DNA of 64,000 bases, from IMG/VR virus record IMGVR_UViG_3300042402_007915, positions 1-64,000 of that record, one strand, 5' to 3'. A program made the position numbers and the translations under genes. Under the pieces are notes generated by a model that was not told where the DNA came from, did no database searches, and worked only from the letters and a program-made list of their open reading frames with translations. Position 1 is the stretch's first letter; every line of letters starts with the position of its first letter. The DNA is from a virus. Shown piece by piece: positions 4,722 through 24,697 of the stretch.

Positions 4722-4742
4722 GAACTAACGCGCCGAAGGCGC
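4722..4742 (-). promoter_or_regulatory. GAAC-N4-stem-GAA-stem hairpin element (putative template-strand hairpin promoter)
   Basis: Plus strand GAAC TAAC GCGCC GAA GGCGC; one of about 18 copies upstream of leftward genes. Confidence 0.6.
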
Positions 4743-4785
4743 ACGAAACAAACCCCCTCCCACTTGCGTGAGAGGGGGTCGGGGA

Positions 4786-5061
4786 CTACTGCGCGGCTGC
4801 GGCAGCCGCCCCATCGGTGCGGCCCTTGCGACGGGCCCACTCGATGAAGGCGAGCTTGTAGGTGTCAATCGACGCCGAGCTGATGAGCCCGAGCGCCACG
4901 CCCAGCAACAGGACCGGCATCACGACATACATCGCGATTTCGATCATCCAATCGATGCCCCAGGCGTAGATGACGCCTGCGATCAGTCCCAGGCCAAGTG
5001 CGGCCTTGAGCGTTGCCAGAGTGCCCCCCGAGAGGGACACCTGCTCAGAGGGGCGCTCCAT
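4786..5061 (-). CDS. two-TM membrane protein
   Basis: 91 aa with two hydrophobic helices; start overlaps the upstream stop (TGATG). Confidence 0.7.
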   Translation of the reverse strand: MERPSEQVSLSGGTLATLKAALGLGLIAGVIYAWGIDWMIEIAMYVVMPVLLLGVALGLISSASIDTYKLAFIEWARRKGRTDGAAAAAAQ

Positions 5062-5873
5062 CAGGACGCCTGCGTGCTGGCGGCGCTGGCCGCAGCCTCG
5101 ATCTTGGCCTTGGCCGCGCGGGTGGAGATGGCCGCACCGAGGATGCTCCCCACCTGGACCCGCTCCGGGTTGTTCGAGCTGCGCACGTTGACGCCCAGGT
5201 CGCTGATGCGCGACCAGAACGCCAGGAGGTCATCGCCCGCCTTGCCGGTGGGCACGGCGTAGCTGCCGTCGGGTTGACGCATGAGCTCGGCGACCCCGGA
5301 GAGCCGGGGCTTGCCAAGCACCTCGATCGTGGGCATGAGCGCCCCGTTGCGGCCGGTGAGGGCCGTGTAGAGGGTGGCGCGGGCCTGGTAGATGGCGTCC
5401 CCGGCGGCCCGGACCACGGCGTTGTCGCCCCGGTACTTGACGGCCTTGCCGTCGGGGCCGGTGGGGAGCACCCCCTTCCGGATCGCCGAGATGAAGTTCA
5501 TGTTCTCCCGGTGCGGGCGGAAGTCCGCCCGGAGCTGCTGGATCTGCTCGATCAGCTTGGCCCGCTCGGTGTCGAGCTTGTCGAGCTCGCTCTGCAGGGT
5601 CTTCGCGACGGTCGCCTCGGCCTTGCTCGTGCCGAGCCCCTTCAGCTGCTGGTACTTCTCGTTCCGGCCCTCGTTGAGGGCGTCGATCTCCGCCTGCTTG
5701 GCGTCGATGACCGCTTTGGCCGCGTTCGCGGTCAGCTCGAGGTTCTTGAACGTCGGCTCCGCGGCCGAGGCCGCCTGCTCGACCACGCTGTCGTGGGCGG
5801 CGAGCGCGGTCAGGAGGGGGAGCATGATCCGGGTGAAGTTGACGTTCGGCTTGGGGGTGTTGGTCTTGGACAT
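5061..5873 (-). CDS. coiled-coil protein
   Basis: Start at ATG 5873 (MSKTNTPK); long heptad-like N-terminal half; GC-rich codons. Confidence 0.7.
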   Translation of the reverse strand: MSKTNTPKPNVNFTRIMLPLLTALAAHDSVVEQAASAAEPTFKNLELTANAAKAVIDAKQAEIDALNEGRNEKYQQLKGLGTSKAEATVAKTLQSELDKLDTERAKLIEQIQQLRADFRPHRENMNFISAIRKGVLPTGPDGKAVKYRGDNAVVRAAGDAIYQARATLYTALTGRNGALMPTIEVLGKPRLSGVAELMRQPDGSYAVPTGKAGDDLLAFWSRISDLGVNVRSSNNPERVQVGSILGAAISTRAAKAKIEAAASAASTQAS

Positions 5874-5940
5874 GGTGTAACCCGTGGGGGGCGCGAAGGC
5901 CCCGGTATTTTTTTTGCGCAATGAGGGACAACCCCTCACG

Positions 5941-5961
5941 GAACCAAAGCGCCGAAGGCGC
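5941..5961 (-). promoter_or_regulatory. GAA-triloop hairpin element
   Basis: GAAC CAAA GCGCC GAA GGCGC, same stem as the copy at 4722. Confidence 0.6.
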
Positions 5962-5990
5962 AGGCCAAGGCTGACGAAGTCAGCCTTGGC

Positions 5991-6434
5991 TTATCGAAGG
6001 AGGTAGACCGTGAGAGGTGAGTCTTGGAAGATTTTGATAATCTCTTGTTTGATTTCCCCGTAGTCTAATCCACCCAATCCGCAACCCATTGGTGGGATAG
6101 AGATTGAAGAGGCGAGCTTAAGTTGAAACGCCTTGTCACTTCGCTCTCTTAAGGTTTGAAGGGCTTTTACGACCCATTCTTTTTGGGACGGGTACTTCCA
6201 GTGCCGCTTTGTAGCGGCGTTGGCGATGTATCTTCCACAAACCGCATAGATGACTACGTCGCCAGGCTTATACTTCCCAGCCTTACAGTCTCGGCGATAG
6301 AGCTGGAACATATCTGGATAGTGTTCTTTGTAGAACTTAGCCAGTCCTGCGCCCATGACGCCAACACAGTTGACTGTGTTGACTTCGATGTCAGCACCTG
6401 TTTGGGTGATGTTGGCTACCTCGATGAATGGCAT
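5991..6434 (-). CDS. macrodomain ADP-ribosylhydrolase (DarG/Poa1p-like)
   Basis: VNTVNCVGVMGAGLA, TKRHWKYPS, IPPMGCGLGGLDY; GGAGG RBS before ATG 6434. Confidence 0.9.
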   Translation of the reverse strand: MPFIEVANITQTGADIEVNTVNCVGVMGAGLAKFYKEHYPDMFQLYRRDCKAGKYKPGDVVIYAVCGRYIANAATKRHWKYPSQKEWVVKALQTLRERSDKAFQLKLASSISIPPMGCGLGGLDYGEIKQEIIKIFQDSPLTVYLLR

Positions 6435-6499
6435 GCACACCTCCGCGGAAAACAAAGGGCGACGCCCTGTTGGCGTCGCCCGTACTGCTGAGGTTGAGC

Positions 6500-6727
6500 T
6501 TACTTCCGCATTCCCCAGCCAGAACCCGCTCCCTGTGCCGAGACGAGGAACCCCTTGGGGCGGCGAACGACGTTGGCCTGAATGGCTTTGCGTTGTTCGT
6601 CCTGTTGCGCGGCGTTCTGCGCCGCACAAACTTTCTGGAGCCTCCAGGAATCGTCTTTGCCGCCGTATTGCTCCTGGATAAGAGCGGCCCGTTCGTCGGG
6701 CGTGATCGGTTGGCGTTTGCGTGCCAT
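6500..6727 (-). CDS. hypothetical protein
   Basis: 75 aa, GAGG RBS, start overlaps the upstream stop (TAATG). Confidence 0.65.
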   Translation of the reverse strand: MARKRQPITPDERAALIQEQYGGKDDSWRLQKVCAAQNAAQQDEQRKAIQANVVRRPKGFLVSAQGAGSGWGMRK

Positions 6728-6903
6728 TAGAGCACCTCACACAAGTCTGCTGGCGAGTAGTCCAGCAGGATAAGGACAAGGAAGAGTGCTGCTACTCCCA
6801 GCACAATGAGGTTGGTGAAGGTGGGCTCTTTGATGACAGCCACGAGGCTGTACCAGAAGAACGCTGCCCACGCGAACAGGCCGGTAAGGAAGATGATGAG
6901 CAT
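6727..6903 (-). CDS. small two-TM membrane protein
   Basis: 58 aa MLIIFLTGLFAWAAFFWYSLV...; below the ORF-track cutoff. Confidence 0.6.
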   Translation of the reverse strand: MLIIFLTGLFAWAAFFWYSLVAVIKEPTFTNLIVLGVAALFLVLILLDYSPADLCEVL

Positions 6904-6919
6904 TGGCTGCTCTTCCTGT

Positions 6920-7429
6920 TCAAGGACAAACCTTGACGCTGGTGGTCTGGATGAGGGAAGTGAAGTTGACCTTTGGACAGGCCAGCTTGTACCACACCTC
7001 GTTGTTGATAGAGACGCGCATGGTCTCGCCGTCTACGGCGGCCATCAGCTTCTGGGCCTTGATGCCACTTTCAAGGAACATCTGGCGGCCATGCTCTGCT
7101 TGGTTGCAGAGCTTCTTTTCTTTGACGTTCTTGGTTTTGTGGTTTTCGGCGATCCTTTTGATCTCGAAGCATACGATGGTGCCGTTGACGGAAAGAATCG
7201 CGTCAACGTTTTGTTTTTCGGTGTTGTCCAGGTGCAGGGTCGCACCGACTCCCAACACCTTGATGGGCGAGAGGAACATCTCTTGGATTGCAAGCAATCC
7301 CCGTGCGATCAGTCCGGCTTCTTTGTCGGACGAGATGGCGGCGAGGAGCGCAGCCTCTTTGATGGACAGCCCCGAAACGGTAACGATCTGCTTGGGACTC
7401 TGCTGACGACCACCAATAACGATTTGCAT
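6920..7429 (-). CDS. possible PD-(D/E)XK nuclease-fold protein
   Basis: VDAIL...VCFEIKR...LCNQA pattern; GAGG RBS. Confidence 0.5.
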   Translation of the reverse strand: MQIVIGGRQQSPKQIVTVSGLSIKEAALLAAISSDKEAGLIARGLLAIQEMFLSPIKVLGVGATLHLDNTEKQNVDAILSVNGTIVCFEIKRIAENHKTKNVKEKKLCNQAEHGRQMFLESGIKAQKLMAAVDGETMRVSINNEVWYKLACPKVNFTSLIQTTSVKVCP

Positions 7430-7468
7430 AGTTATACCTCGAGGAATAGTAGAACTGCATGTTCTACC

Positions 7469-7489
7469 GAATAGAAGCCGCGAAGCGGC
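7469..7489 (-). promoter_or_regulatory. GAA-triloop hairpin element
   Basis: GAAT AGAA GCCGC GAA GCGGC; contains the very stable GCGAAGC DNA mini-hairpin. Confidence 0.6.
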
Positions 7490-7524
7490 GGGTAAACGAA
7501 AGGCCCCCTTTCGGGGGCCATGTG

Positions 7525-7747
7525 CTACCAGCTGAGCGTGTCGTACAGTTCGTCCGCGGCCTTTTTGCCCCAGCGACGGTACGCTGCGTCAATCAGCAGG
7601 AAGTTGTAGTCGTTCTTTTTGGTGGCCAGGCAGAACGAGACGATACGCTTGCTCGCTTGGAATCCAAGCCAGTCTTTGCGTAGCTGGCGGACCCACCACC
7701 GCCAGCAGTGGCCGGCGTACTTTTTCTTTTCTTTCCTACGGGCCATG
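7525..7747 (-). CDS. small basic hypothetical protein
   Basis: ATG 7747 (MARRKEKKK) with AAGG RBS. Confidence 0.6.
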
Positions 7748-7762
7748 ATACACCTTGTCTTG

Positions 7763-8029
7763 TTAGAAGGGAACGTCTTCGAGGCAGTTGGCTGCCATTG
7801 CTGCTTCAAGATCTGCTTGCCACTGACGCTCTGCATCAGTGATCATGAGCACCTTGGGCTTGCCGTCTTGGGTGCCCCAGCGGGCAGTCTTGGCCCAGAG
7901 GCACGCGAGTTCCAGGTCGGAGACTTCGGGGATGGTGGCGCCGCATTCGGGGCACTGCTCCCCTGCCGCGCCTTGTTCAAGGTAACCGCATTGGTGGCAG
8001 TACGGCATGTTGGGTCGTTGCAGTTCCAT
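7763..8029 (-). CDS. Zn-ribbon protein with SSB-like tail
   Basis: CHQC...CPEC; ends LEDVPF. Confidence 0.7.
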   Translation of the reverse strand: MELQRPNMPYCHQCGYLEQGAAGEQCPECGATIPEVSDLELACLWAKTARWGTQDGKPKVLMITDAERQWQADLEAAMAANCLEDVPF

Positions 8030-8232
8030 TATTCACCTCCGAGCAGGAGTTTGATTGCCAGCTTGATACGCTGGCTGAGGGTTTTGGGAGCGGCTTTCAC
8101 TTGCTGCCGCTTGAACTTGCTCATCGCAATGAGCCTTGCGGCTGTTTTGAGTAGAGCCGGTGACTGCTTTGCTTCGATCGGGTGGCGCGATCGAAGCACT
8201 TCCTCCCATAGCCGGGTTTCGATTTTGTACAT
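8029..8232 (-). CDS. hypothetical protein
   Basis: AGGAGG RBS, ATG 8232, just downstream of the hairpin element at 8246. Confidence 0.65.
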   Translation of the reverse strand: MYKIETRLWEEVLRSRHPIEAKQSPALLKTAARLIAMSKFKRQQVKAAPKTLSQRIKLAIKLLLGGE

Positions 8233-8352
8233 GCGACCTCCTGGCGAACCCACCCCCCCGAAGGGGGTGGGCTATTCCTCAGCCGCGCTTGTCTACGAGA
8301 TAGCGTGTCGTGGGGATCAGTTTGCCTTCTTTATTTTTACCTTGAGAGTAGG

Positions 8353-9033
8353 CTAAGGGTAGTTGATGAGGAATCGGTTCAGTTCCTCATAGGACATACG
8401 GTCAATACGCTGCTGTGCCTTAATATGCTGTTCCATACGCATCTGAGGCTTGATTGCAGGAGGCGCATAGTCTGCTGCGTTGGGCAGCAGCATCAGCTCC
8501 ATTGTTGGCTTTTTGGACTTGTCTGTCGATGGCTTTGTGTTTTGGGGGTTACCGTAACTTCCTCGTTGTGGGATGTAGTCCCACCCGCAGTGGATTCGCA
8601 CTCCCATGGCGTTTACTTTATATTGGGGAGCAGCAATGTTGATTCCGACATTTGCGCCACTTTGTTCAGTGACTTTCTCTCCGCGTGCTCCAATAGCTTG
8701 AAGATATTCGCGCCCCAATATGGCTTCGACTTTTTCTTCAGGCATCTTTTGGGTTTGGACCTTTCGGATGTCCCAGAGCTGGATGATATTTTGCCAGGCG
8801 AAGTAGCTTGTAAAGTGGCTTGGGCGTTGGCCATCCAGACAGATCAGCATGCGTTCTTTGTCGAATACGGGCCTAAGCAGACACCAGAATGGGATAGCTG
8901 ACATTTGAGAGTCTGTTACGACTCCCAGGACTTCTGAGTTTCCGTATCCTTTCCATTCTTTTTCGGTGTCTTGAATCTCTTGTAGTGAGATCGGGCTGAT
9001 AAGCCCGTTGTCGATTGCTGCTTGGAAGCTCAT
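8353..9033 (-). CDS. hypothetical protein
   Basis: ATGA overlap with the NADAR stop; 226 aa. Confidence 0.7.
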   Translation of the reverse strand: MSFQAAIDNGLISPISLQEIQDTEKEWKGYGNSEVLGVVTDSQMSAIPFWCLLRPVFDKERMLICLDGQRPSHFTSYFAWQNIIQLWDIRKVQTQKMPEEKVEAILGREYLQAIGARGEKVTEQSGANVGINIAAPQYKVNAMGVRIHCGWDYIPQRGSYGNPQNTKPSTDKSKKPTMELMLLPNAADYAPPAIKPQMRMEQHIKAQQRIDRMSYEELNRFLINYP

Positions 9034-9805: not shown

Positions 9806-9814
9806 TCCGCCTCC

Positions 9815-10102: not shown

Positions 10103-10104
10103 GC

Positions 10105-10500: not shown

Positions 10501-10503
10501 ATC

Positions 10504-10879: not shown

Positions 10880-11124
10880 TACTGGAAACCTGCCATTTTC
10901 ACTGTGAAAGCGATTGCAGTCCAATATGTGAGGTACGCGGCCAGGCCGGCGAAGGCGGTTGCCCAGAAGTTGAGCTGCGGCAGCAGCATATAGACGCTGC
11001 CGATAAAGATGGTGCAGCCCAAGGATTCCCACTGGCTGTATCCATCCAGGATTGCTATATCAACAATCCCGAGAATACTGAAGAGTGCCGCCGCCAGCAT
11101 GGTCTCTTTGGTTTGTTTTTGCAT
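10879..11124 (-). CDS. multi-TM membrane protein
   Basis: ATG 11124 (MQKQTKE); three hydrophobic segments. Confidence 0.6.
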   Translation of the reverse strand: MQKQTKETMLAAALFSILGIVDIAILDGYSQWESLGCTIFIGSVYMLLPQLNFWATAFAGLAAYLTYWTAIAFTVKMAGFQ

Positions 11125-11149
11125 TGCAGTTCTCTTTTGTGGAGGGTAA

Positions 11150-11421
11150 AGAAGCCCCGCCAACTCGCGTTGACGGGGCCCCTTTTTTCAACGGAACATT
11201 TTTTGTGATGCTCTCACTTTAGCGTCCCGGTAGGTCGAGAGCCGGCGCTTTAGTGAGCGTTTGCGACAGCGAATGTTTACAGCATTGGCTGACCGCCTCC
11301 TTAACGGCGTTATGTTAGAGGCCGCGGGATTTGGCATGACCAGAGAGTTATTCTCTGGTCCAGGCAGTGGAGGGACGGTGCTAAACCTATTCAGGTTCGC
11401 TCCTGGCTGCCTCCAAAGAAC
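11150..11421 (-). ncRNA. putative structured small RNA
   Basis: Lies between the hairpin element 11418-11438 and a terminator at ~11150-11180; several internal stems; no convincing RBS-led ORF. Confidence 0.35.
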
Positions 11422-11561
11422 CCAAGGCCCGAAGGGCCAAAGGGTAAGGACACGGTCCCGGGGAGGGGCAGTAATGGGACAAACACGGACAGGCTGGCTT
11501 TAAGCCAGCCCTTGCGATTGGGTTTGACCTTGAGGAAGAAAGAAGGGCCGCGCTTCTTGCG

Positions 11562-12311: not shown

Positions 12312-12432
12312 TTATGTGCATACCTCCACGGAACCCAACCCCTGAAGGGGGTCGCCACTACTTTTCCTTTCGAGGTCATTTATTAAGAAACAAAGCCCCG
12401 CTAATCCAATGAAGGATTAACGGGACTTGGGA

Positions 12433-13005
12433 CTACCATGCGTCTACGACTTCGAACTCTGGATCTTCGCCGTCAACGATCTCGTTGAACGCCTGGACGT
12501 CTGCATCGAGCGGCTCTTGCAGGGAGGTCAGAATGCCCCGACGAATCAGGGCCTTGCTCAGCTCCTTCTTATAGACACCGTCGAACGGCAGCTGCCTAAG
12601 CATCCGCCAGATTTCGAGCGTGTCCAGCTCGAAACCGATGAGGTCTTTTTCGTGCTCCGCCAGCAAGAGCTTGAGCTCGTACTGCTCCCGGAACTCTCCC
12701 GGGACTTCATCGGGGCCCTGCAGGAAGTTCTCCAGGTCGTTTGCAACCTGGAAGAAGGTGATTCGGCAGAGCTGCTCCAAGCCGAGAATGTCCTCTTCGG
12801 AGAGGGCCTCGAACCAGGTGCTCGTTTCCTTGTGCCCACTGTAGTCGCCGGACCCGTAGATCCAGCTACCGAACAGGGCTGCTCCAGCAGCCCCAACGTG
12901 GGATTCGATGAACTTCCACACGCAGTCGGGCATGTTGGCCGGACGGTGGGACGGCGTGAAGGTCGGAGGGGACCAATCAGGCCCTGGGGCCTTGGTGTCG
13001 GACAT
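12433..13005 (-). CDS. acidic hypothetical protein
   Basis: GGAG RBS then ATG 13005 (MSDTKAPG); the upstream extension in the ORF track derives from repeats. Confidence 0.7.
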   Translation of the reverse strand: MSDTKAPGPDWSPPTFTPSHRPANMPDCVWKFIESHVGAAGAALFGSWIYGSGDYSGHKETSTWFEALSEEDILGLEQLCRITFFQVANDLENFLQGPDEVPGEFREQYELKLLLAEHEKDLIGFELDTLEIWRMLRQLPFDGVYKKELSKALIRRGILTSLQEPLDADVQAFNEIVDGEDPEFEVVDAW

Positions 13006-13199
13006 TGGATGCTCCATAATGAGGGAGGTATTCCCTACTTGTGAACTGACCTCACGAAGTGTAGAACGGTGACCTTGAGGAAGGATTTGAGATGGCGCGG
13101 TTTGTGTGCGTGAAGGCGCGGCCACCCTATTATTCTCTCGAGGTACCTTGTCCTCCTCATACCTAAACCAAACACCTATTAATAAACTAATCCAATAGA

Positions 13200-13360
13200 A
13201 TTGGAATGGGAATGGGATAATGGGAAGGAGTGGGATGGAACTGCAATGGGATAATACCTGGAAAGGAACTGGGATAAGACTGCAATGGGATAAGGGGAAG
13301 GAACTGGGATAAACTGTAATGGGATAACTGCAATGGGATAAACTGCAATGGGATAATACC
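13200..13360. repeat. iteron-like direct repeats ACTGYAATGGGATAA / TGGGATAA (candidate origin)
   Basis: Five 15-mers (13240, 13279, 13313, 13327, 13342) and about eight TGGGATAA cores in a ~1.2-kb non-coding tract. Confidence 0.75.
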
Positions 13361-14236
13361 TGGTCCTCTCCACAAACATATAATATTAACAACTAACCCC
13401 TCGCACACGTACTTCTCACTTATCTCTCACTACACTCTCACTTAGGTCTGAACATCTAACTCTCTCAAGGTATATGTGTTTGGTTACTATGTTTGGTTTA
13501 GTTTGAATATTTATACCCCTGGGGTCCGGGGGTTGAAGTACCTTGTTTGGTTGATAGGTAATCCGTTTTTTCTCGGGTTTAGAGTTTTGGTTGGTGTTGG
13601 GACCCTGGGGGTTAGTGTATTTATTGACCTTGAGACATAAAGAGGTGGCGCGAACCCTCTCACGACACCCGAATCCCAGTTCCTAAACCTCTCCAGGTTC
13701 ACATTTCAGTATCATTTCGGTGACAGATTTGTGACAGCACTGTCCGGAAGGACTGATTATTTTATTCTTTCTCTTATGCAAGAAACACTTATACCCCGCA
13801 GGTCTTATCTGCAGGGTCCGATTCCAGTTTTGCTGGTCCTAAGTATCTATCTCTACCCTTCACTAATGAGTTTCGTGCTGGTTCATCCCCTCTAAGGATC
13901 TCCAGTTCACCATACATGCATTGTAGGATTGGTGTCTGATAGTTTTGACAGTTAGGTTGGTATGAAAGATTTGGGTTATTGTGTATTCCAGTGCAGATGT
14001 TCTCCAACTCGGGAGTAGTCCGGGAGAGGAACCAATAACCGATCCGGGTTTGTTTATAGCATTGTCCTTGAGAGAAAGATAGATGGCGCGGCTCTTTCAT
14101 GACTATCCTATTTCCAAGAACAGGACTGCTTGTGCGGAGTAAGGCGGCCCCTTCTATTTCCACTCAAGGTAAACTCGCAAGAGAAACATAAGACCGCCAC
14201 CTGGTTTGGTGACGGTCTCTCAGTACAGGTTGATCT

Positions 14237-14722
14237 TCAGCACCGGGGCAGCTCTGTCCACCCAAAGTGAAGGATGTAGGGCTCGCCTCCCTTCACTGTG
14301 AGCTTGACGTGGTTTCTGAATCCCGGTGTGTCCGGCAAGTTCCCGGACATCTCAAACACCAGGTTCATCTTCTCCAGCTCTTCCAGGGGGAGGCCAAGAA
14401 AGGAGAACAGCTCGACTCTTCCTGCGAAGATGTCCCAGACCTCCGCCGCCTGAACGCAGCAGGGAAAGGCCTCGAGGCTGAACACCCCGAAGTGGGGAGG
14501 ATCCTCCTCGAAGACGGACGCGGCCATGGCGTCCACCTCCTCTTGCTCGCCCTGGGACTCGTAGGGCTCCCAGGAGCCTCCCAGTTCCGGCCTCTCGTAG
14601 ATGATCGAGGGGCTGTACGGGGGTTTGCACAGGAAGGCCCGGATCATTGCCAGGCCCCTGTAACCGGTAACGGTACGGGACTTGAGTCCCGGGACCACCA
14701 AGTGGTAAGTGTTTTGGTTCAT
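14237..14722 (-). CDS. hypothetical protein
   Basis: AAGGAGG RBS; downstream of the hairpin element 14737-14757. Confidence 0.75.
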   Translation of the reverse strand: MNQNTYHLVVPGLKSRTVTGYRGLAMIRAFLCKPPYSPSIIYERPELGGSWEPYESQGEQEEVDAMAASVFEEDPPHFGVFSLEAFPCCVQAAEVWDIFAGRVELFSFLGLPLEELEKMNLVFEMSGNLPDTPGFRNHVKLTVKGGEPYILHFGWTELPRC

Positions 14723-14736
14723 GAACACCTCCTTGG

Positions 14737-14801
14737 GAACTTAAGTCCCGAAGGGATTTGTTTGTTTATTTATTTACCTTGAGGAAGAATAGGGTGGCGC
14801 C
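14737..14801 (-). promoter_or_regulatory. composite element: GAA-triloop hairpin plus CCTTGAG-N12-GGCGCC box
   Basis: GAAC TTAA GTCCC GAA GGGAT, followed ~20 bp later by CCTTGAG GAAGAATAGGGT GGCGCC; the pairing recurs at 13043, 15389, 16370 and 18220. Confidence 0.6.
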
Positions 14802-15159
14802 CATTCGTCAGCCAGTCAAGCCGGCGGAGTCATACCCGCGTAAGGGCCGCCCCTCTATTTATCCCTCCAGGTAAACCCAGCCAGTCAAGCTCGGGCCAAA
14901 CCCCTCCAGTCAAACCCAGGAAGGGATGGGGCCGAAGCTGCACACAGGCCAGGCCACCACAGGCCTGGCCCGGAGCCGACCGAACTGAGTGGTAACTCAG
15001 GGAACGCACCAACCCGAAGGGTTAGGTTGAAGTAGGCCTGGTCTGGGGATTGTAACCCAGGAACGCACAGGGCCTTGAGATAAGGGTGGGGTGACTATTT
15101 ATCGGGAACTAAACTCCCCCGGCTTCTATGCAACGAAGCGTGCCACCCTATTTATTTAC

Positions 15160-15392
15160 GAAACAAGAGCCCCCGACATGCCGGGGGCTCAAGGAGACTT
15201 TTTAACGCAAGACGTCCTCACCCAATGGGCTCGGTCTTAGCGGACCTGGCTTGCTCAAGGCCAGGAACATTTTCTTCGAAGCCGGCCGGGACATCCCACC
15301 GGGTGACTTCGCGAGGGCAGCTGCACTCTATGAGCGCCGCACTTTCCCCGCAGAGGTGACCAGCACTCGTCAGTGGTGGTTCTCCAAGGAAC
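15160..15392 (-). ncRNA. putative structured small RNA
   Basis: Starts at the hairpin element 15389-15408 and ends at the terminator GAGCCCCCGGCATGTCGGGGGCTC-TTGTTT; GC-rich stems, no RBS-led ORF. Confidence 0.35.
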
Positions 15393-15500
15393 ACAAACCC
15401 CGAAGGGGAAACAGGCCCTTGAGGAAGGAATAGTTGGCGCCGCTTAGAGTGAGTATTTATAAGAGAAACAAAGCCCCGCCACATGGGGCGGGGCGTAGGC

Positions 15501-16277
15501 TCAGCGGCGGGCCTGGGGCATGGGCCGGCCCAGGAGGCCGGCCAAGACCTCCTCCTGGCGGTCGTAGGCGGTGCAGGCCGCCTTGGCCCGCTTGACGTTC
15601 GCCTTCCGGCGAACGCTCTGGGCCTGGAAGGCCACGATGGCCTCCCAGTCGAGGCCGAGGGAGTCGCAGTCTGCCTGAGCGAGGCCGTCCTGCGCCGCCA
15701 TGGCGGCGCAGTGCGCGAGCCACAAGTCGTACGAATGCCGCCCCTCCGCTTCGGCGGCGCGGTGGGCGGCGATGGTGGTCTCGAGCCTGTCCACCCAGGC
15801 CTCGGAGGCCAAAGCGCCCGCGAGGGCCAGGACCTTCCCGTGGACGGCGACCACGGTTTGGACCTTGCGGCCACCCACGACGTCGTTCAGCCAGCCCTTC
15901 TCGGGCTCGGCGCGAACGATAACGAGGAGGCCTCCTTCCAGAACGGCGTAGACCGTCCGGTTGGTGCACGTCCGATGGACCAGGCGCTCGCCGGGCAGGG
16001 GGCTGACGATGCCCCCGTGGATGGTGTCGGAGGGGGGGCAGGCCTTCGCGAGCCCGTTCCGCCAGAGGCGGTAGTCTTCCCCGCTCCAGGCGGGAAAGGA
16101 CGCAGCCTGGGCGTCGACCGCCCAGGCGTGCTGGCGCCGCAGCGCCTCCTTCTGGAAGAGCTGGAACTCGGCGGGGGAGCAAGCGCCCGCTTGCACGGCG
16201 ACCCGGTCGAGGGCCTGCTCCGCCTCAGCCATAGTGAGGGTGGCGAGGCTGTTCACGAACACGGAAAGGTTGAACAT
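15501..16277 (-). CDS. hypothetical protein
   Basis: 258 aa, GGGAG RBS, GC-rich codons, terminator-like hairpin downstream. Confidence 0.75.
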   Translation of the reverse strand: MFNLSVFVNSLATLTMAEAEQALDRVAVQAGACSPAEFQLFQKEALRRQHAWAVDAQAASFPAWSGEDYRLWRNGLAKACPPSDTIHGGIVSPLPGERLVHRTCTNRTVYAVLEGGLLVIVRAEPEKGWLNDVVGGRKVQTVVAVHGKVLALAGALASEAWVDRLETTIAAHRAAEAEGRHSYDLWLAHCAAMAAQDGLAQADCDSLGLDWEAIVAFQAQSVRRKANVKRAKAACTAYDRQEEVLAGLLGRPMPQARR

Positions 16278-16488
16278 GTTGACTCCCGGTCGGTCTTACC
16301 AGCCGTGCGAATGTGGCACTACACTCCAGTACAACACTGGGATGTAGTTGGTCCGGTAAGACTCTCCATGAACCTACACTCCGAAGGAGAAACATTTGCC
16401 CTTGAGAGATGATTGGGGATTAGAGGTGGCGCCGACTTGTTGAGTGAGTATTTATTGAGGAAACAAAGGCCCGCCGAAGCGGGCCAGG

Positions 16489-16713
16489 CTACCCTTGGAG
16501 CCATTTCGTGTCCACCCCGTCGGGGATGGGCACGTTGGAAGGCCACCGCCCTTCATGGACAACAACATCTTCGGCTATGTAGCGAGCCTCCCATACACTA
16601 TTCTGGGAGACTTCGTCCTGGACAACATCCAGGACGGCTTCGAGCTGGTTTCTACTAACCAGCCAGGGCTCTTTGATGGCCCTGTCAATCAGGGCCTTCT
16701 GTTCTGGTGACAT
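16489..16713 (-). CDS. hypothetical protein
   Basis: GGAGG RBS; bounded by the hairpin element at 16729 and a UUCG terminator. Confidence 0.7.
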   Translation of the reverse strand: MSPEQKALIDRAIKEPWLVSRNQLEAVLDVVQDEVSQNSVWEARYIAEDVVVHEGRWPSNVPIPDGVDTKWLQG

Positions 16714-17093
16714 CCTTGCACCTCCGAGGAATAGAACTCCCGAAGGGCATATTTATTGGGGGAAACAAAGGCCCGCCGAAGCGGGCCGGGCTACGGGAGG
16801 AACAGGGCCACCTCGAAGAGGGCGCGCCACCTATTTTCCCTCAAGGGCACAACGATTATTTATCAAGAAGAAACAAGAGCCCCTCCAATCCATTTAAGGA
16901 CAGAGGGACTCTCATAAAGACAGAGGGCCACAAGCCCTCCATCCCCGTTTACGACTGCTCCAAGGTTACCCTTGTGAGTCGAGCGATTCACGCTCACCCA
17001 TGCAGTACGGCTCTGCATGGGATTAGGAGATTGAGGAGGCCCAGTCGCCTGGGCTCCCTCCTCCGTCACCGAACCAAACCCCCCGAAGGGGGA

Positions 17094-17279
17094 TTAACGA
17101 GTGGCCTGGCTACGCAACCAGGCCACTTTTCCGCTCGCCGCGTGGGCAATACCCCGGGCCTTTTTCAGCCACGGGGAGTTCTTTTTCCAGCGGGGGGTAG
17201 CCCGCTTGGCAGCGTAATAGTACTGCCAGGCCCTCCACTCCGCGCTGAGGGCGTTCTCGAGCTCCTCTTCCAGGTCCAT
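17094..17279 (-). CDS. small Trp/basic hypothetical protein
   Basis: GGAGG RBS, ATG 17279. Confidence 0.6.
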   Translation of the reverse strand: MDLEEELENALSAEWRAWQYYYAAKRATPRWKKNSPWLKKARGIAHAASGKVAWLRSQATR

Positions 17280-17427
17280 GGTCACCTCCAAAGAAACCTT
17301 CAGAACTTAATCCTGAAGGGAGCGCGGAGTGCTGATAATGGCGGCCACCTCTTTATTCTCCTCAAGGGCCCATTATTTATAACAAGAAACAAACCCCGCC
17401 CACCAATGAAGGTGAACGGGGCTGGGA

Positions 17428-18162
17428 CTACCAGGTGACGTGGCCGAAGCCAAGGTTCAACATCCAGGGGTCGGGCTCGACGAGCCGGCGGACCGGCCCT
17501 TCGGGGGGAGCAGGCACTTTTGCCCACTCCATGACCTCGAAGTCGGCTGGCGTGAGGCTGGCGATGCGGGCCTCGGCCTCTTCGGCTTTGGCCTCCAGTC
17601 CCGGAATCTTGACCTGGTACCAGGCCAAGAGATCAACGGCGCGTTCGTCGGCCTGAGAGGCGTACTTGGTCCCGGTGGTCCCGGGAGGCCATTCGAGAGT
17701 GGCCCACCCCGAATCCCGGCCCCGGGGCTTGTGGTGGATTACCACCTTGGTCCCCTTGGGCCACCAGCCCAAGAGGTCACCCTCGGCGTCCTGGACCACC
17801 CCGCCCACGAGACGGACTGGGGTGTCCTCCGCCAGGACGTGGTCGTGGCAGAGGCGAGCCGGGATGTGGGCCGCCGGGAGGTGCGCGTTGCGCACCTCCA
17901 CCTGGACCGCCCGTGCTTCGGCTTCGGCGGCCCGGGCTTCGACTTCCGGAAGGAGGCCCTTGAGGTGGGCCGCCTCCTTCCGCCAGTCTTCAACGTTGAC
18001 CAGGTCGCTCTGAGCGGCGTGCAGCCGCCCCTGCACCGGCCACAAGTACCCTTTGCCCTCGTCACCGTACCCGACGAAGAGGTGGGGGACAGGATCCACC
18101 ATCCGGGGGATGATGGGGGTCTCGGAGATCACGTAACCGTACTTCCAGCAACGATAGAACAT
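17428..18162 (-). CDS. hypothetical protein
   Basis: GGAGG RBS, ATG 18162 (MFYRCWK); GC-rich codons. Confidence 0.75.
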   Translation of the reverse strand: MFYRCWKYGYVISETPIIPRMVDPVPHLFVGYGDEGKGYLWPVQGRLHAAQSDLVNVEDWRKEAAHLKGLLPEVEARAAEAEARAVQVEVRNAHLPAAHIPARLCHDHVLAEDTPVRLVGGVVQDAEGDLLGWWPKGTKVVIHHKPRGRDSGWATLEWPPGTTGTKYASQADERAVDLLAWYQVKIPGLEAKAEEAEARIASLTPADFEVMEWAKVPAPPEGPVRRLVEPDPWMLNLGFGHVTW

Positions 18163-18830
18163 AATAACCTCCACAGGACTTGCAGAGCCTGGTCTATCCA
18201 GGATGCAGTCCCTATCAATGAATCCACATCACGAAGTGTACAACATTAGTAGTGTTGTATAGTTTGGCCCTTGAGAGAATGAATGGCCGCGAGCTTCGTG
18301 TGAGCGGAGTTGGTTTGGAGTGGGGATTTGGGTGGCATCAACAAAGCGGCGGCTATCCTATTTCTCTCAAGGTAACAAAGAAGAGAAGACCCCTCTAACA
18401 TTTAAGTCAGAGGAGTCATGGTGAATACGCTTAAAGGGGAACCACCCCTACCAAACTAATCCCCTAAGCGCTGGGGAAGAAAGGAGATGAACTAACATAG
18501 CCTGGCCGCACCAAAGAGGGTACTAACATGACTTATCAACCACCAAGCACCAGGCCATGAAAGTCCAATCCCAACGAACAGAAACCCCCGAAGGGGAACA
18601 AAGGAAAGAACCTTGAGTGGGAAAGGGGAAGGATACCCACCTCAAAGCCAAACCCATCAACCCAAACAAGCCACAACGTCCAAGCGGAGTGCGCGTGGCA
18701 CACTGGGTCTGCCCTTGACTCGGAGTCCGGCGGAGTAACAAGAAATTAAAATAAAAAGGGGCCCCATTTCTGGAGCCCCTCCCAGGCAGTTAAGCCCGGC
18801 ACCCCCTACGCATTGTAGAGGGTGTTCGAA

Positions 18831-21800
18831 TCAATCCGGGACGTACTCAGTCCATTCGCCGAAACTTGGCTGGTCGTCTTCCGACTCCTCAGCACTAGGA
18901 CCATCCAAATAGGTGTCCTTCAAGTCTTCGGCGAAGCCCATGATGCTGATCCAGGAGGAGTAAATCCCCTGTTCAACCAAGCGGGCAAAGAACTCAGTAT
19001 ACATCTCATCCACCGCTTCCGGTTTCAGGAATGCGCGTTTACGGTTACAGGGCACCATTCCGGCGATACTGTTCCGATACGCATCCTTAGCCCGGAGCTC
19101 CCATCTACGTTGGGTCATTGCAAAATGGAGTGACTTGTCATCACGCAATTTCTTCTGCAATGCGGCAGTCAGCGAAACCAACTTGCCAGTAGACGGGAAA
19201 GCAGGAGCATTCGCGCTGCGGATACGAGCGACAGCAGCCTTTTTCAAGACAGCCATGCACTCTTCGCACTCGTGAAGAGGCTTATGCTTGGTCCGGAAAT
19301 GTTCCACCTGGATCCCAGGCACCTCCCCTTCTTGCGTCGGGTAGGCGTAAGCCGTGTCGAAGGCGAGCTCTGCAACCAAGGCACAGAGTTTAATCTCGTT
19401 CTTCCCACGGAGAGGAGTCAGCTTATGCTTCGAGACAAAGTAGCTAACATATCCGTCAGCATCCTCCGCCGTCAGCAGGCAAGACTCCTTGGTCTTGGTG
19501 GAAATGATATCCAGAAAGGTTGACCCCTCAAAGCACAGGGCGTCGAGAGCCCTGCTGTCTGCTTTGGTGAGCCAGTTCAAGCCGCCGTCTTTCTTGACGT
19601 TCAACTCGGACTGGGGGGTGCCCAAGGGTTTGTCCCCAACCTTCTGGAGCTCGACATAAATACCCGCCTCATTATTCCCACGCCGGTAGGCGATACACGA
19701 GAACAAGCTTTCGCGTGCCCAAGTGATCCAGGGAGCCAGGGCGTCTTTAGCCTGCTCTTCCCGCATTTCAGCCGAGAACTGCTCGTAAGCAAAGTCCATC
19801 GCCAATTTGCGAGCACTACTGGACTCTTGCGAGTCCGAGTTGTGGCCTTCCCCTTCACGGGTTTCCCCGTTCGAGTCGGACAAAGACATAGCCTCATAGA
19901 TGTTCTGATCGAGCCGAGCCAGCGGGTGGAGCGGGACTTTCGTCTTCTCCATCCACTTACCCATGGCATCGAAATCAATACACCGGCTATTCTGCAGGCG
20001 CCAGACAACGCGTTGATCGCGCCAAGCCGCCAAATGAGAACCCTCAGCAGGGTTTTTCCAAGAGTCCCCCTCCCCTTGGATAGTCCGGAAGATCTTATCT
20101 ACCACCCAGAAGAGCGGCAGCCGCTTCTCACCATAGTTCACCATCGGAGGGGTCGCCCCGCTCTGTTCGGCTTTCTGGTGGAGAGCACGGAGGATCCGGT
20201 AGGGAAGCCCTGCGCAAGGCTTAGCCGGGCGGTTAAACCCAAGCTCCTCACGCCGCTTTTCCCAAATTTGACACGCTTTGGTGTAAGCGATGTCAGAGAG
20301 ATTCGCTTGGTACCTCAACGACCCGAAGGCGTTGGGATCAATCCGCTTCCGGAGACGCTCACCCATTGCTGAGTTATTGCGCCGCCATCCGAGGACACCA
20401 AAGAACGCACTCATACCAACCGCCTCCTTAAACTTATCCTGGAAGTAAATCAGGACTTCGTCGGAGGAAATCAGCCGGCATTTTTGCGACAAGGTGAGCG
20501 AATCGAAGGTCTCGGCCGCTTCTCCAGGTATCAGCTTGAGGACAGCCTTATCCTGGTCGAGGAAGTTCTCAGATGAGATACCATTCCCCTTGAGCGAGCC
20601 AAACTTGAACGCCTTCCCGTTGGAGTCAAGGTCGTAGTGGCAGTAGATGTGACCATCTGCCATTTTCTTCCAGGCCCGAAGGTTAGAAACCTTCGGAGCG
20701 TTCGTCCAGCGCACGATCCGCTTGGCGCGGTCAATGCTTTCCTGAATGAACGTACCCCATGCGGGAATCCATCCTTTAGCTGCGTCAACGATATATTTCA
20801 CTCGTTCCGCGAGACCAAGGAACCCATCACCATCCTGCCAAGTAGCAGGGTTGGATTTCTGCTCAGACCAATAGAGGCTTTTAACCCTCCTAAAGGCAGC
20901 ATGCCACTTGCCCATTCCCTCAGGATCTTCCTTGAGGTACTCGATTTTATCGAGCCGAGCCCAGTACCGCAGATCAACGAGGCGCGCCTGATTAATGGCG
21001 TACGCACGAGCCTGCAGAATAGTGGCTTGCCCCACAGGACCCATAGGATCCTTGAGCAGGTAACCGTAAAACGCCTCTTGATCCTCGAAAGGAATCGACA
21101 TCTTTTCGCCAGCCGGTTCGATCCGGAAGGTAGGCTGCCAGATCCGACGGTTTGCAAGGAGTTTCACATCCTCGTCCGTGGTCCAAGCAGCAATGTCGCC
21201 GTCGTCGTCACCCTGGAGATCGGTTACATCATCCGGGTTCATGAAGACAGCAAAAGGAACGACAATCCGGTCGACTACCTCACCGTCAGCGTTTGCCACA
21301 CTCAGCGTCATGTGGGGGAGGGGATCCACCACCTTAAGCGTCATGAGCGACTGAGGGAGAATAGCAGGAAAGCGCCAAAGAACCGTTTCATCGCCTACAG
21401 CGGGAAGCTTCTGGTTAACACCGCCGATCACGCACTCACCCTTGTTCAGGGAGTTGTCCATGACCATGACGACCTGGTTCCCTTCGAAACCGGTGCCATT
21501 GGCAATGTTATACAGTCGCCGCTTGAGCTTATCCTCTGCCATCTGACGAAGGACAGGGATGTCAAGCAAGCTGTAGTCGAGTCCAAGCTCTTTAGCAACC
21601 CGAACCATGGTGATCTGGTTGTTGAGGGTGGTGTTGCCGCCACTATCCTCAGAGATCAAACCATCGACACCATCCTTGAGCAGCTTATCCATGGCCTTTT
21701 GGACCAAGCGTTCGACTGCCGCGGTAGTGTCGTTATCGACCTTGACGAGCTGCAATAGCTCAAAGCATGACTTGATCGTGCTTGCGCGTGACCAAGTCTT

Positions 21801-23000
21801 GAGAATGCCCAAATGAGCCTTAACAACCATTTCAGCGTCCACCTCATCCTGCGCTTTCGCCCAGTCTTTGGCAGTACCCTTAATCTGGTTCCAAGCAACC
21901 CGGACAGTGGGGTTACCGGCTGCATCGACACAAGTTTCATCGGGAACCAACAAGCCTTTAAGGAACATGTTCCTGTGCTCGGGGTTACCGGTGACTTCTT
22001 CGAGGCAGAGGCCACGAATTTGGATAACGGGAGCGATCATCCCACCCTGGTATGCGACCCCGCGTTCTTGGATGAACGCTTGAAGGAATTCGCAGTTCGG
22101 GTGGTACTTACCACTACCGTCAACCAAAGCCCGGATCTTCTTACCCTCGCGGTCGTTCACCCAAATATTACTAAGGGTTACTGGTACCTCGGGGAAGAAA
22201 CCACCGGGCAAAAGCGGGGACTTGAATGAACCAACGTAGGAACCCACGTTGATCGCATCACCGAAGACACGCTCCAGCAACGCAAAGGCAAAATGTTTGC
22301 CACCATTCTTACCCAAAGTGTTGAAGGCGGTCCGCCCTTCGAGCACACCCATATCATTCTGTCGGAAGACAGGATAGAGCAGCTCTCCAGGGGGCCTCCC
22401 CAGATTCTCCGTTGATTCGACCGGCAGGAAGAAATCCCCGTCGATATCAAGGAGCCCGTTGTGCCGCAAGACACAATCGAGCAAGCCTGGGGCCCGAAGG
22501 ACCTCCAAAGTTTGCACGCAAGGGAGGATTTTCTCCCGAGCAATGCTAGTCATTGCCGTAAAGTGGTAGGGGCTCTCAAAGCGATCCCCTTCCCGGCAAT
22601 GAGCATAAGCCTCAGCAGCATCCTCCAAGATGCCGTTCGACTTGAAGAAGCTGAGTGCAGTCTTGGACTGACCAGCAGCTGCAGCCATCCGGCCGGAGGA
22701 CTTGCGTTCCACCCGACCATAGGTCTGCATAATCTTGGTGCGGCGATAGAGCGCCGAGTTAGCCATCATGGCCGCGTACGTCGAGCGCCGCGCATCCAAT
22801 TTGGCCTTCAGCTTCTTAGCCGCAACCAGCAAAATCTGATCGACCTCGTCGGCCGTATCAGCGGGGATTGGAGTCCCCTTAATCAGCGCACGGAGAATCC
22901 CCGGCGCAAAACGACGGAGCACCTTTTCCAGGCGCCCGTTCGCTGCCAGAAGGGGCGGCACCACGACGGTGCGCCTCTCCTGGACTTCTGTTGCTTCCAT
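18831..23000 (-). CDS. single-subunit two-barrel RNA polymerase (YonO / QDE-1 RdRP-like)
   Basis: Motifs in order DGSG, IQIRG...KGLL, WRFP, DLQGDDDGD, VGQ, IDRAK, matching the cellular RdRP/YonO fold; AAGGAG RBS before ATG 23000 (alternative start 23054). Confidence 0.85.
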   Translation of the reverse strand: MEATEVQERRTVVVPPLLAANGRLEKVLRRFAPGILRALIKGTPIPADTADEVDQILLVAAKKLKAKLDARRSTYAAMMANSALYRRTKIMQTYGRVERKSSGRMAAAAGQSKTALSFFKSNGILEDAAEAYAHCREGDRFESPYHFTAMTSIAREKILPCVQTLEVLRAPGLLDCVLRHNGLLDIDGDFFLPVESTENLGRPPGELLYPVFRQNDMGVLEGRTAFNTLGKNGGKHFAFALLERVFGDAINVGSYVGSFKSPLLPGGFFPEVPVTLSNIWVNDREGKKIRALVDGSGKYHPNCEFLQAFIQERGVAYQGGMIAPVIQIRGLCLEEVTGNPEHRNMFLKGLLVPDETCVDAAGNPTVRVAWNQIKGTAKDWAKAQDEVDAEMVVKAHLGILKTWSRASTIKSCFELLQLVKVDNDTTAAVERLVQKAMDKLLKDGVDGLISEDSGGNTTLNNQITMVRVAKELGLDYSLLDIPVLRQMAEDKLKRRLYNIANGTGFEGNQVVMVMDNSLNKGECVIGGVNQKLPAVGDETVLWRFPAILPQSLMTLKVVDPLPHMTLSVANADGEVVDRIVVPFAVFMNPDDVTDLQGDDDGDIAAWTTDEDVKLLANRRIWQPTFRIEPAGEKMSIPFEDQEAFYGYLLKDPMGPVGQATILQARAYAINQARLVDLRYWARLDKIEYLKEDPEGMGKWHAAFRRVKSLYWSEQKSNPATWQDGDGFLGLAERVKYIVDAAKGWIPAWGTFIQESIDRAKRIVRWTNAPKVSNLRAWKKMADGHIYCHYDLDSNGKAFKFGSLKGNGISSENFLDQDKAVLKLIPGEAAETFDSLTLSQKCRLISSDEVLIYFQDKFKEAVGMSAFFGVLGWRRNNSAMGERLRKRIDPNAFGSLRYQANLSDIAYTKACQIWEKRREELGFNRPAKPCAGLPYRILRALHQKAEQSGATPPMVNYGEKRLPLFWVVDKIFRTIQGEGDSWKNPAEGSHLAAWRDQRVVWRLQNSRCIDFDAMGKWMEKTKVPLHPLARLDQNIYEAMSLSDSNGETREGEGHNSDSQESSSARKLAMDFAYEQFSAEMREEQAKDALAPWITWARESLFSCIAYRRGNNEAGIYVELQKVGDKPLGTPQSELNVKKDGGLNWLTKADSRALDALCFEGSTFLDIISTKTKESCLLTAEDADGYVSYFVSKHKLTPLRGKNEIKLCALVAELAFDTAYAYPTQEGEVPGIQVEHFRTKHKPLHECEECMAVLKKAAVARIRSANAPAFPSTGKLVSLTAALQKKLRDDKSLHFAMTQRRWELRAKDAYRNSIAGMVPCNRKRAFLKPEAVDEMYTEFFARLVEQGIYSSWISIMGFAEDLKDTYLDGPSAEESEDDQPSFGEWTEYVPD

Positions 23001-23069
23001 GTGACTCCTTTGTCTGGGAAGCGAAGGGTTGGGGAATATCGACGTTATTGTCATACCCCGCGTGACTCG

Positions 23070-23090
23070 GAACCCACCCCCCGAAGGGGG
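23070..23090 (-). promoter_or_regulatory. GAA-triloop hairpin element upstream of the polymerase gene
   Basis: GAAC CCAC CCCCC GAA GGGGG. Confidence 0.6.
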
Positions 23091-24692: not shown

Positions 24693-24697
24693 GAGAC

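What the first reader, a model, noticed from the sequence alone, without database searches (positions are those of the whole stretch)
4722..23090. About 18 template-strand GAA-triloop hairpins with N4 virion-RNAP promoter geometry
Plus-strand consensus is GAA(C/T)-N4-[5-nt arm]-GAA-[complementary arm]. Copies start at 4722, 5941, 6448 (GAC loop), 7469, 8246, 11418, 12331, 13043, 14737, 15002, 15389, 16370, 16729, 17071, 17303, 18220, 18576 and 23070. Most have exactly 9 nt between the C/T and the loop (range 8-10). Stem sequences vary while pairing is kept (GCGCC, GCCGC, GGCCC, CTCC, CAC, CCCCC). All share one orientation, upstream of leftward genes or candidate small RNAs. d(C-GAA-G) is an unusually stable DNA hairpin, whereas the RNA complement would be a poor UUC triloop. 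N4 promoters place +1 C, 4 nt, a 5-bp stem and a GNA loop on the template strand. Predicted transcripts would begin (G/A)UUC.
Basis: partly seen in the sequence, partly recalled or inferred. Interest (0 to 1): 0.88.

Follow-up and report, generated by a model that had tools for sequence, protein, structure and literature searches.

The report
Hairpin promoters for two-barrel phage polymerase
An uncultured 147-kb phage puts 18 copies of a tiny DNA hairpin plus a short start box in front of its early genes; they are most likely start signals for its own one-protein 'two-barrel' RNA polymerase, an enzyme class for which I found no hairpin promoter described, and similar hairpins in a cultured Bacillus phage make the idea testable.

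Summary
Real: 18 hairpin-plus-box copies on one strand in 4.7-23.1 kb (shuffles 0.2); stems co-vary in the 3-nt-loop register (112/117 pairs, permuted 70). They look like coliphage N4 promoters, but the genome has no N4/T7-type polymerase. It has two single-chain two-barrel RNA polymerases by fold: a 1.4-kaa one (18831-23054) with a copy in its leader and the other 17 downstream, and a 1767-aa one in the tail operon. Genes before the first use a T-rich motif like the Thermus P23-45 virion-polymerase promoter. Best reading: DNA-hairpin promoters for the non-virion enzyme (~0.62). I move the likely +1 seven bases downstream, to an always-purine position (39/39; ~0.7), so the geometry is probably not N4's. 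About 20 relatives keep hairpin, 9-nt gap and TTC box, but with lineage-specific loops; GAA is a clade trait. The published promoter candidates of cultured Bacillus phage 0305phi8-36 are also perfect hairpins. No start site is mapped, so an RNA-level signal stays open (~0.13). This scan has reported similar systems on at least 8 other genomes.

The parts
23066..23092 (-). Hairpin promoter candidate in the leader of the polymerase gene (7-bp stem, loop 23083-23085, box from 23073, likely +1 23066)
   Evidence: same site in relatives L011/L012/L023
18572..18596 (-). Copy, loop 18590-18592, likely +1 18572
   Evidence: identical in 95% relative L022
18216..18238 (-). Copy, 3-bp stem, likely +1 18216, before 244-aa ORF
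17299..17321 (-). Copy with T.G closure (template), 8-nt spacing, likely +1 17299
17067..17092 (-). Copy, likely +1 17067, no Shine-Dalgarno-led ORF within 260 nt (candidate small RNA)
16725..16747 (-). Copy, likely +1 16725 at the Shine-Dalgarno of a 74-aa ORF
16366..16389 (-). Copy, likely +1 16366/16367, before 258-aa ORF
15385..15408 (-). Copy, likely +1 15385 (candidate small RNA)
14998..15023 (-). Copy, likely +1 14998 (candidate small RNA)
14733..14756 (-). Copy, likely +1 14733, before 161-aa ORF
13039..13061 (-). Copy, 3-bp stem, likely +1 13039, before 190-aa ORF
12327..12352 (-). Copy with T.G closure, likely +1 12327
11414..11438 (-). Copy, likely +1 11414 (long leader or small RNA)
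8242..8267 (-). Copy, likely +1 8242, before 67-aa ORF
7465..7489 (-). Copy just after a GAAA-loop terminator, likely +1 7465
6444..6468 (-). Variant copy (template loop GAC) nested in a terminator-like hairpin, likely +1 6444
5937..5961 (-). Copy, likely +1 5937
4718..4742 (-). Last copy, just after a 13-bp terminator, likely +1 4718
18831..23054 (-). Single-chain two-barrel RNA polymerase, non-virion type (probable start 23000, 1389 aa); R-x-P and invariant QGDDDGD; proposed reader of the hairpins
   Evidence: motifs; AF2 model pLDDT 76; Foldseek QDE-1 E 2e-11, P23-45 gp64 1.5e-7, phi14:2 gp66 3.5e-6
23106..28830 (-). Eleven copies of motif B (T-run + TTCTATGG-like, mostly after a terminator hairpin) before the genes that precede the polymerase gene; candidate pre-early promoters for the virion polymerase
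   Evidence: 112 upstream vs 15 downstream of the polymerase gene in 23 related loci (p 1e-15, loci not independent); like P23-45 AT-rich promoter
61270..64000 (+). 5' part of a 1767-aa second two-barrel polymerase in the tail operon (G000 61270-66573), candidate virion RNAP
   Evidence: invariant DxDxD, R-x-P, K..K; AF2 pLDDT 88; VIA Z 11.2 QDE-1 (rmsd 4.1, 325 aligned), Z 11.0 P74-26 gp62 (rmsd 4.5, 286)

Best explanation
The 18 elements are promoters for the phage's non-virion single-chain two-barrel RNA polymerase (18831-23054), recognised as a short single-strand DNA hairpin plus a TTC box. Proposed order: (1) the 1767-aa tail-operon polymerase enters with the DNA and starts at the T-rich motif B in the 23-29 kb block, making the mRNA of the second polymerase; (2) the second polymerase starts at the hairpin elements, one in its own leader (positive feedback) and 17 in front of early cassettes and small RNAs; (3) the inverted repeat folds within a strand (in this clade probably the template strand, whose d(GNA) loop is the very stable form) and stands in for the upstream duplex, leaving about 11 nt of template with the invariant T(-10) and RTTC(-7..-4) single-stranded; RNA starts at the purine of Y-R, about 18 nt from the loop centre. 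Shown by sequence: element, covariation, partition around the gene, two two-barrel folds, absence of N4/T7-type polymerase and sigma factor.
For: Enrichment 18 vs 0.23. Stem pairs 2-4 kept in 112/117 with four pair types vs 70 (max 84) permuted; triloop register beats the UUCG register in 31 of 39 copies, and 12 copies allow at most 1 bp as tetraloop, while true terminators here use UUCG/GAAA/GCAA tetraloops. 13 of 18 copies have a terminator-like hairpin upstream, 4725 and 7472 within 25-29 nt of the box, leaving no room for another promoter. Sigma70-like sites are at chance level (6 vs 4.6); no sigma factor domain (controls rang). Same A/B partition around the polymerase gene in close relatives L006, L011/L012, L022 and distant ones: hairpin + 9 nt + NTTC 51 times downstream vs 11 upstream and 11 antisense; RNA-type loops 24/43 upstream vs 15/98 downstream, p 3e-6. 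P23-45 precedent with mapped starts: AT-rich promoters for vRNAP, other promoters for nvRNAP (PMC10770324). +1 precedents for two-barrel phage enzymes: phiKZ TATG with G as +1, AR9 template bases at -11/-10 (PMC7598289). In cultured 0305phi8-36 the repeated motif proposed as gp99 promoter (PMC2147016; matched by me to the 16-copy intergenic motif, logo not seen) is a 5-8 bp hairpin with template loop GCGA on one strand, one copy in the gp99 leader, followed by T-N-N-T-G-T-A.
Against: No 5' end is mapped. ViennaRNA gives no template vs non-template difference (-3.69 vs -3.67 kcal/mol), so the strand argument rests on measured mini-hairpin stability (PMC13037366). Loop-to-box distance varies 8-10 nt. 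In the RYA-loop clade the GNA loop lies on the coding strand and the hairpins end in T-rich tails like terminators. TNAC loops read GNNA on the template but UNAC as RNA, also a known RNA tetraloop (own knowledge). Eight stems are only 3-4 bp, hard to extrude from duplex DNA without help. A third motif (ATAAATA, 12 copies) lies upstream of about 8 elements and could be the true promoter there. P23-45 nvRNAP promoters show no such hairpin.
Confidence: 0.62

Rival explanations
1. Promoters for the 1767-aa virion polymerase, possibly with N4 geometry (+1 at the R of RTTC).
For: Stem, loop and 9-nt gap copy N4 P1; one copy precedes the second polymerase gene, as N4 promoters precede RNAPII cofactor genes; short GNA hairpins suit DNA that is single-stranded during entry.
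Against: 17 of 18 copies are downstream of the non-virion gene; the block before it carries motif B, which resembles the P23-45 virion promoter and keeps its place in 23 loci; 0305phi8-36 has hairpins and gp99 but no match to the virion-polymerase profile and no DxDxD in gp145/gp146 (weak negative, gp147 has a DADADG).
Confidence: 0.13
2. An RNA-level signal: a hairpin in read-through RNA marks cleavage at NNY/R, or acts as a terminator, pause or boxB-boxA-like antitermination site.
For: RNA hairpins are computed more stable than DNA (-6.4 vs -3.7); in distant relatives many follow stop codons with U-rich tails; a few boxes read GTTCTTTG like rRNA boxA (own knowledge); an SNase-domain gene is conserved nearby.
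Against: Strong terminators often abut the element, so little RNA would carry it; 3-5 bp triloop stems are poor terminators; only a minority have TTT after the box; no Rfam family reaches its cut-off.
Confidence: 0.13
3. Promoter for the non-virion (or host) polymerase read as a duplex palindrome by a dimeric factor, with no hairpin formed.
For: Loop sequence is fixed within each lineage and tracks the polymerase tree only loosely (8 changes vs 13 shuffled; TNAC scattered); short stems.
Against: Arm sequences differ freely while pairing is kept, which a sequence-reading dimer would not require; no sigma factor or sigma70 sites.
Confidence: 0.09
4. DNA-level sites for cassette exchange or primer synthesis (like G4 origin mini-hairpins), not transcription.
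For: Related strains skip whole cassettes between these intergenic modules; mini-hairpins occur at phage priming sites (PMC13037366).
Against: One orientation, fixed box, Y-R and Shine-Dalgarno directly downstream; shuffling is explained by the repeated modules as a side effect.
Confidence: 0.03

Closest known systems
Coliphage N4 early promoters P1-P3 read by virion RNAP gp50 (PMC4496689)
   Same: 5-7 bp inverted repeat with template-strand C-GNA-G loop, variable stem sequence, about 4 unpaired bases before a G; N4 P1 has the same loop.
   Different: No T7-fold polymerase here; 18 copies, mostly after the second polymerase gene; N4's conserved -8 G is present in 5/39 copies; extra invariant T, TTC box and Y-R suggest +1 about 18 nt, not 11 nt, from the loop centre.
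Thermus phage P23-45 two-polymerase system, gp96 vRNAP and gp64 nvRNAP (PMC10770324)
   Same: Two single-chain two-barrel enzymes, one in the tail module, one at the end of a pre-early block; AT-rich promoters before it that resemble motif B; a second promoter class after it.
   Different: Myophage; candidate virion enzyme is its own ORF, not fused to tape measure; no sequence match to gp64; P23-45's GC-rich promoters form no such hairpin.
Bacillus phage 0305phi8-36 gp99 and its 21-bp promoter candidates (PMC2147016)
   Same: Terminase match, polymerase gene followed by small single-gene units, RdRP-like polymerase aligning over R-x-P to DxDGD (weak: 6 bits), repeated one-strand element that folds as a hairpin, a copy in the polymerase leader.
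   Different: The paper's only use of 'hairpin' is for terminators; 4-nt loop (template GCGA), fixed inner stem, different box; untested there too.
YonO of SPbeta, phi14:2 gp66, QDE-1/RDR2 family; phiKZ and AR9 nvRNAP promoters
   Same: Two-barrel catalytic core; phiKZ TATG(+1) and AR9 template-strand reading give the spacing precedent (PMC7598289).
   Different: YonO promoter undetermined (PMC5467207); no hairpin promoter found described for any of them in my searches.

Membership tests
N4 vRNAP hairpin promoters | Template-strand 5-7 bp stem with 3-nt GNA loop closed by C-G | tested here: met
   17/18 GAA, 1 GAC; 16/18 C-G closure; 10/18 stems of 5 bp or more
N4 vRNAP hairpin promoters | Stem identity free as long as paired | tested here: met
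   112/117 pairs vs 70 permuted
N4 vRNAP hairpin promoters | Conserved G at -8 of the stem, read by the specificity loop | tested here: not met
   G in 5 of 39 copies, C in 32 (N4 contact)
N4 vRNAP hairpin promoters | +1 eleven bases from the loop centre, after an A-rich template spacer | tested here: inconclusive
   That base is G29/A7/T3 with random -1 (N4: T then G); a better Y-R lies 7 nt downstream; no start mapped
N4 vRNAP hairpin promoters | Cognate T7-fold, about 3500-aa virion polymerase | tested here: not met
   No tblastn/phmmer match with N4 as positive control; both candidate enzymes two-barrel
N4 vRNAP hairpin promoters | Three promoters at the first-entering end, ahead of the second polymerase's genes | tested here: not met
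   18 copies, 17 downstream of the non-virion gene; the block ahead uses motif B
N4 vRNAP hairpin promoters | Supercoiling- and SSB-dependent extrusion | not testable with these tools
   needs biochemistry
P23-45-type two-polymerase programme | Two single-chain two-barrel RNAPs with DxDxD | tested here: met
   both genes together in 3 related records, incl. both complete ones
P23-45-type two-polymerase programme | One polymerase packaged in the virion | not testable with these tools
   only its place in the tail operon suggests it
P23-45-type two-polymerase programme | vRNAP fused to the tape measure protein | tested here: not met
   separate 1767-aa ORF between 1365-aa and 2968-aa ORFs
P23-45-type two-polymerase programme | AT-rich promoters before the nvRNAP gene, a different class after it | tested here: met
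   motif B 112 vs 15; hairpin-box 51 vs 11; by sequence only
P23-45-type two-polymerase programme | nvRNAP promoter is the GC-rich TCTAG-type motif | tested here: not met
   ours is a hairpin; P23-45 sites have none of 4 bp with a 3-4 nt loop
Known structured RNA (Rfam) | Match at gathering score | tested here: not met
   four weak hits far below cut-off in 1-30000

The most novel reading that the evidence does not exclude
A wide family of phage single-chain two-barrel (QDE-1/YonO-like) RNA polymerases starts transcription without sigma or other factors by binding an extruded DNA hairpin with a lineage-specific loop that replaces the upstream duplex about 12 nt before +1. This would be a second, independent invention of N4-style hairpin promoters in the cellular-type polymerase fold, and the first defined promoter structure for these enzymes, including gp99 of cultured phage 0305phi8-36.
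Probability: 0.5. Interest if true: 0.85.

Novelty: new variant of a known kind. Interest (0 to 1): 0.72.

Why it matters
How one-protein two-barrel polymerases (YonO, gp99, crAss gp66, P23-45 gp64) find their promoters is largely open. If true, this gives a defined, 25-nt, structure-based promoter for such an enzyme, with many natural loop/enzyme pairs for mapping specificity. It shows that hairpin promoters are not tied to the T7 fold, and it suggests orthogonal expression tools. The link to cultured 0305phi8-36 makes the question testable at the bench now, although the window's own phage is uncultured.

Tried and rejected
No RNA holder listed: the two RNA-labelled wastewater runs were contigs, probably DNA, of related strains and cannot show starts. 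Pfam, PHROGs and PDB sequence searches did not name the 1407-aa protein, and Pfam and PDB did not name the 1767-aa one; only folds did. hhalign found no sequence link between the two polymerases. Foldseek gave only weak RNAP hits for the 1767-aa model; VIA resolved it. The PF00940 search rang in no control, so it is uninformative and was replaced by the N4 control. No cultured phage matched either polymerase by tblastn. ViennaRNA could not show strand asymmetry, and counting G.U vs G.T stem extensions was ambiguous. I tried to calibrate +1 on the mapped YonO start, but could not place B. subtilis 168 coordinate 2225998 on the SPbeta record. The first P23-45 mapping had a wrong offset and was redone. 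The phi14:2 paper was not held. Rejected: sigma70 or phage-sigma promoters, CRISPR-like repeats (irregular spacing, genes between), boxA (box too variable), tRNA.
Full report
Setting. The window is the first 64 kb of a 147,225-bp phage record with terminase, portal and sheath genes and its own Pol III alpha, primase-helicase and RecA. Genes run leftward from about 29 kb and the virion genes rightward. Terminase hits include Bacillus phage 0305phi8-36 (25% identity).

Observation. The same scan finds 18 on one strand and 0 on the other in 4.7-23.1 kb, 0.23 in shuffles, and 4 hits in the remaining 129 kb of both strands. Pooling the window with relatives whose polymerase is about 45% identical (L006, L011, L012) gives 39 copies. 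Stem pairs 2-4 are Watson-Crick in 112 of 117 cases with C-G, G-C, A-T and T-A types, against 70 (max 84) when 3' arms are dealt out at random. The 3-nt-loop register beats the UUCG register in 31 copies, ties in 5 and loses in 3. The phage's ordinary terminators use RNA tetraloops or long loops with T-tails, so the element is a different thing. Two unsearched positions are invariant: a T three bases before the R-T-T-C box, and a purine four bases after its C. Across eight orthologous sites in a 95%-identical relative that align without a shift, the loop and TTC are unchanged while flanks drift; the ninth (17074) is shifted by one base.

Which polymerase. The 1407-aa ORF directly behind the 23070 copy has R-x-P and an invariant QGDDDGD. 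Its model (pLDDT 76) matches QDE-1, RDR2, P23-45 gp64, phi14:2 gp66 and gp96. A 1767-aa ORF in the tail operon has invariant K..K, R-x-P and DxDxD; its model (pLDDT 88) matches QDE-1 (Z 11.2) and P74-26 gp62 (Z 11.0) ahead of cellular polymerases. Both complete relatives and one close fragment carry both genes. N4 vRNAP and RNAPII have no credible match, and no sigma domain is found.

Partition. The eleven units before the polymerase gene carry motif B, a T-run ending in TTCTATGG or similar, mostly after a terminator. In 23 related loci B occurs 112 times upstream and 15 times downstream of the polymerase gene. It resembles the P23-45 pre-early promoter, which ends TTTA-TGG and was assigned to the virion enzyme by ChIP and Cappable-seq (PMC10770324). 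The hairpin class starts in the polymerase leader and continues downstream, in the window and in relatives. By that precedent B belongs to the virion enzyme and the hairpins to the non-virion enzyme; this step is inference. The promoter role itself is supported by position: 13 of 18 copies have a terminator upstream, two of them within 29 nt of the box, and sigma70-like sites are at chance level.

Where is +1. In N4 the tenth base after the loop is G preceded by T in all three promoters. Here that base is G29/A7/T3 and the base before it is random; in distant triloop relatives it is C in 12 of 20. Seven bases further on there is a purine in 39/39, after a pyrimidine in 33/39, and in 46/51 distant copies. 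Motif B has the same TTC-NNN-G spacing, and phiKZ nvRNAP starts at the G of TATG (PMC7598289). With this +1 the invariant T falls at -10 and the stem base near -12, where two-barrel polymerases have the upstream edge of the open complex (established knowledge); N4's junction at -5/-4 belongs to the T7 fold. I put this at about 0.7; it is not shown.

Family view. About 20 more distant loci (26-35% polymerase identity) keep hairpin, about 9 nt, NTTC and purine downstream of the gene: 51 cases vs 11 upstream and 11 antisense. Loops are lineage-specific: TYC (template GRA) in this clade, TAT in its sister, TNAC (template GTNA) scattered over several branches, RYA in another. Upstream hairpins mostly have RNA-type loops (24/43), downstream ones rarely (15/98). 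d(GNA) and d(GNNA) mini-hairpins are unusually stable and far more so than the one RNA counterpart measured (PMC13037366), which fits TYC and TNAC on the template strand. It does not fit the RYA clade, where the GNA loop is on the coding strand and the hairpins could double as terminators. So a hairpin at a fixed distance is the conserved feature; the N4-like GAA loop is this clade's version.

A cultured test case. In the 50 kb around gp99 the commonest 10-mer occurs 16 times on one strand. Each copy is a perfect 5-8 bp hairpin with co-varying outer pairs and template loop GCGA, followed by T-N-N-T-G-T-A, with one copy in the gp99 leader. I take this to be the published motif, though I could not see its logo. 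There too the tenth base after the loop is variable and the conserved T-A lies at 14-15. No match to the virion-polymerase profile was found in that phage (weak negative).

Rivals. Virion-enzyme promoter 0.13; RNA processing, termination or antitermination signal 0.13; duplex palindrome read by a factor 0.09; recombination or priming site 0.03. Weak points of the main reading: no mapped starts, no computed strand asymmetry, 3-4 bp stems in eight copies, and an unexplained ATAAATA motif upstream of some copies.

Verdict. Works like an N4 hairpin promoter, but is not a member of that family (no T7-fold enzyme, no -8 G, wrong place, probably a different +1). It sits in a P23-45-like two-polymerase programme whose second promoter class is a hairpin, which P23-45's is not. 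I found no paper describing hairpin promoters for a two-barrel enzyme. This scan has noted similar systems in at least 8 other genomes; those notes are not independent support. New variant of a known kind; interest 0.72.

Noticed in passing
genome-wide, both strands; e.g. window 11528, 12283, 13073, 14777, 15417, 16400 (+) and 16846, 17367, 18372 (-); also inside virion genes (G000 75285, 88595, 93065): Bipartite motif: CCTTGAG, a purine-rich spacer of 6-28 nt, then GGCGC. 23 of 136 CCTTGAG sites fit vs 0-6 for control heptamers; present in 95% relative L022, absent from L006/L012. Probably a site for a phage DNA-binding protein; unexplained.
   Followed up: partly
window 12385-17380, - strand: ATAAATA 11 times plus one close variant, often 3-5 nt after a terminator ending TTTGTTTC; none elsewhere on this strand; 12 vs 0 in L022, 8 vs 1 in L012. 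Possible third promoter class in the small-RNA cluster.
   Followed up: partly
window 11100-11420, 13400-14100, 14780-15390, 16720-17070, 18200-18800: Long structured stretches without clear ORFs that follow hairpin elements: candidate phage small RNAs; no Rfam match.
   Followed up: partly
window 14240-14764, 15496-16750, 16483-16811, 17408-18169: Contigs of related strains skip whole gene cassettes with joints inside the repeated intergenic modules, suggesting cassette exchange; loose ends show further hairpin copies.
   Followed up: no
window 28900-29100: Short direct repeats (18-mer at 28943 and 28992) and purine-rich runs at the point where early and late genes diverge; possible genome end or origin.
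   Followed up: no
window 13230-13360: Short tandem repeats of a TTATCCCATTGCAG-like unit in an intergenic stretch.
   Followed up: no
window 30602-33742 (+): 1046-aa protein with a staphylococcal-nuclease domain, conserved in the same place in relatives.
   Followed up: no
G000 145400-145430 and 136710-136732 (- strand): Two weaker hairpin-box copies (3-bp stems, invariant T and purine kept) outside the window that could drive replication-region genes.
   Followed up: partly
L006 7640-7700 and 8575-8620; L012 near 15550: Relatives carry a repeated long RNA-like hairpin beginning CCTTGCCGACA in leaders after the promoter element; possible RNase III-type site.
   Followed up: no
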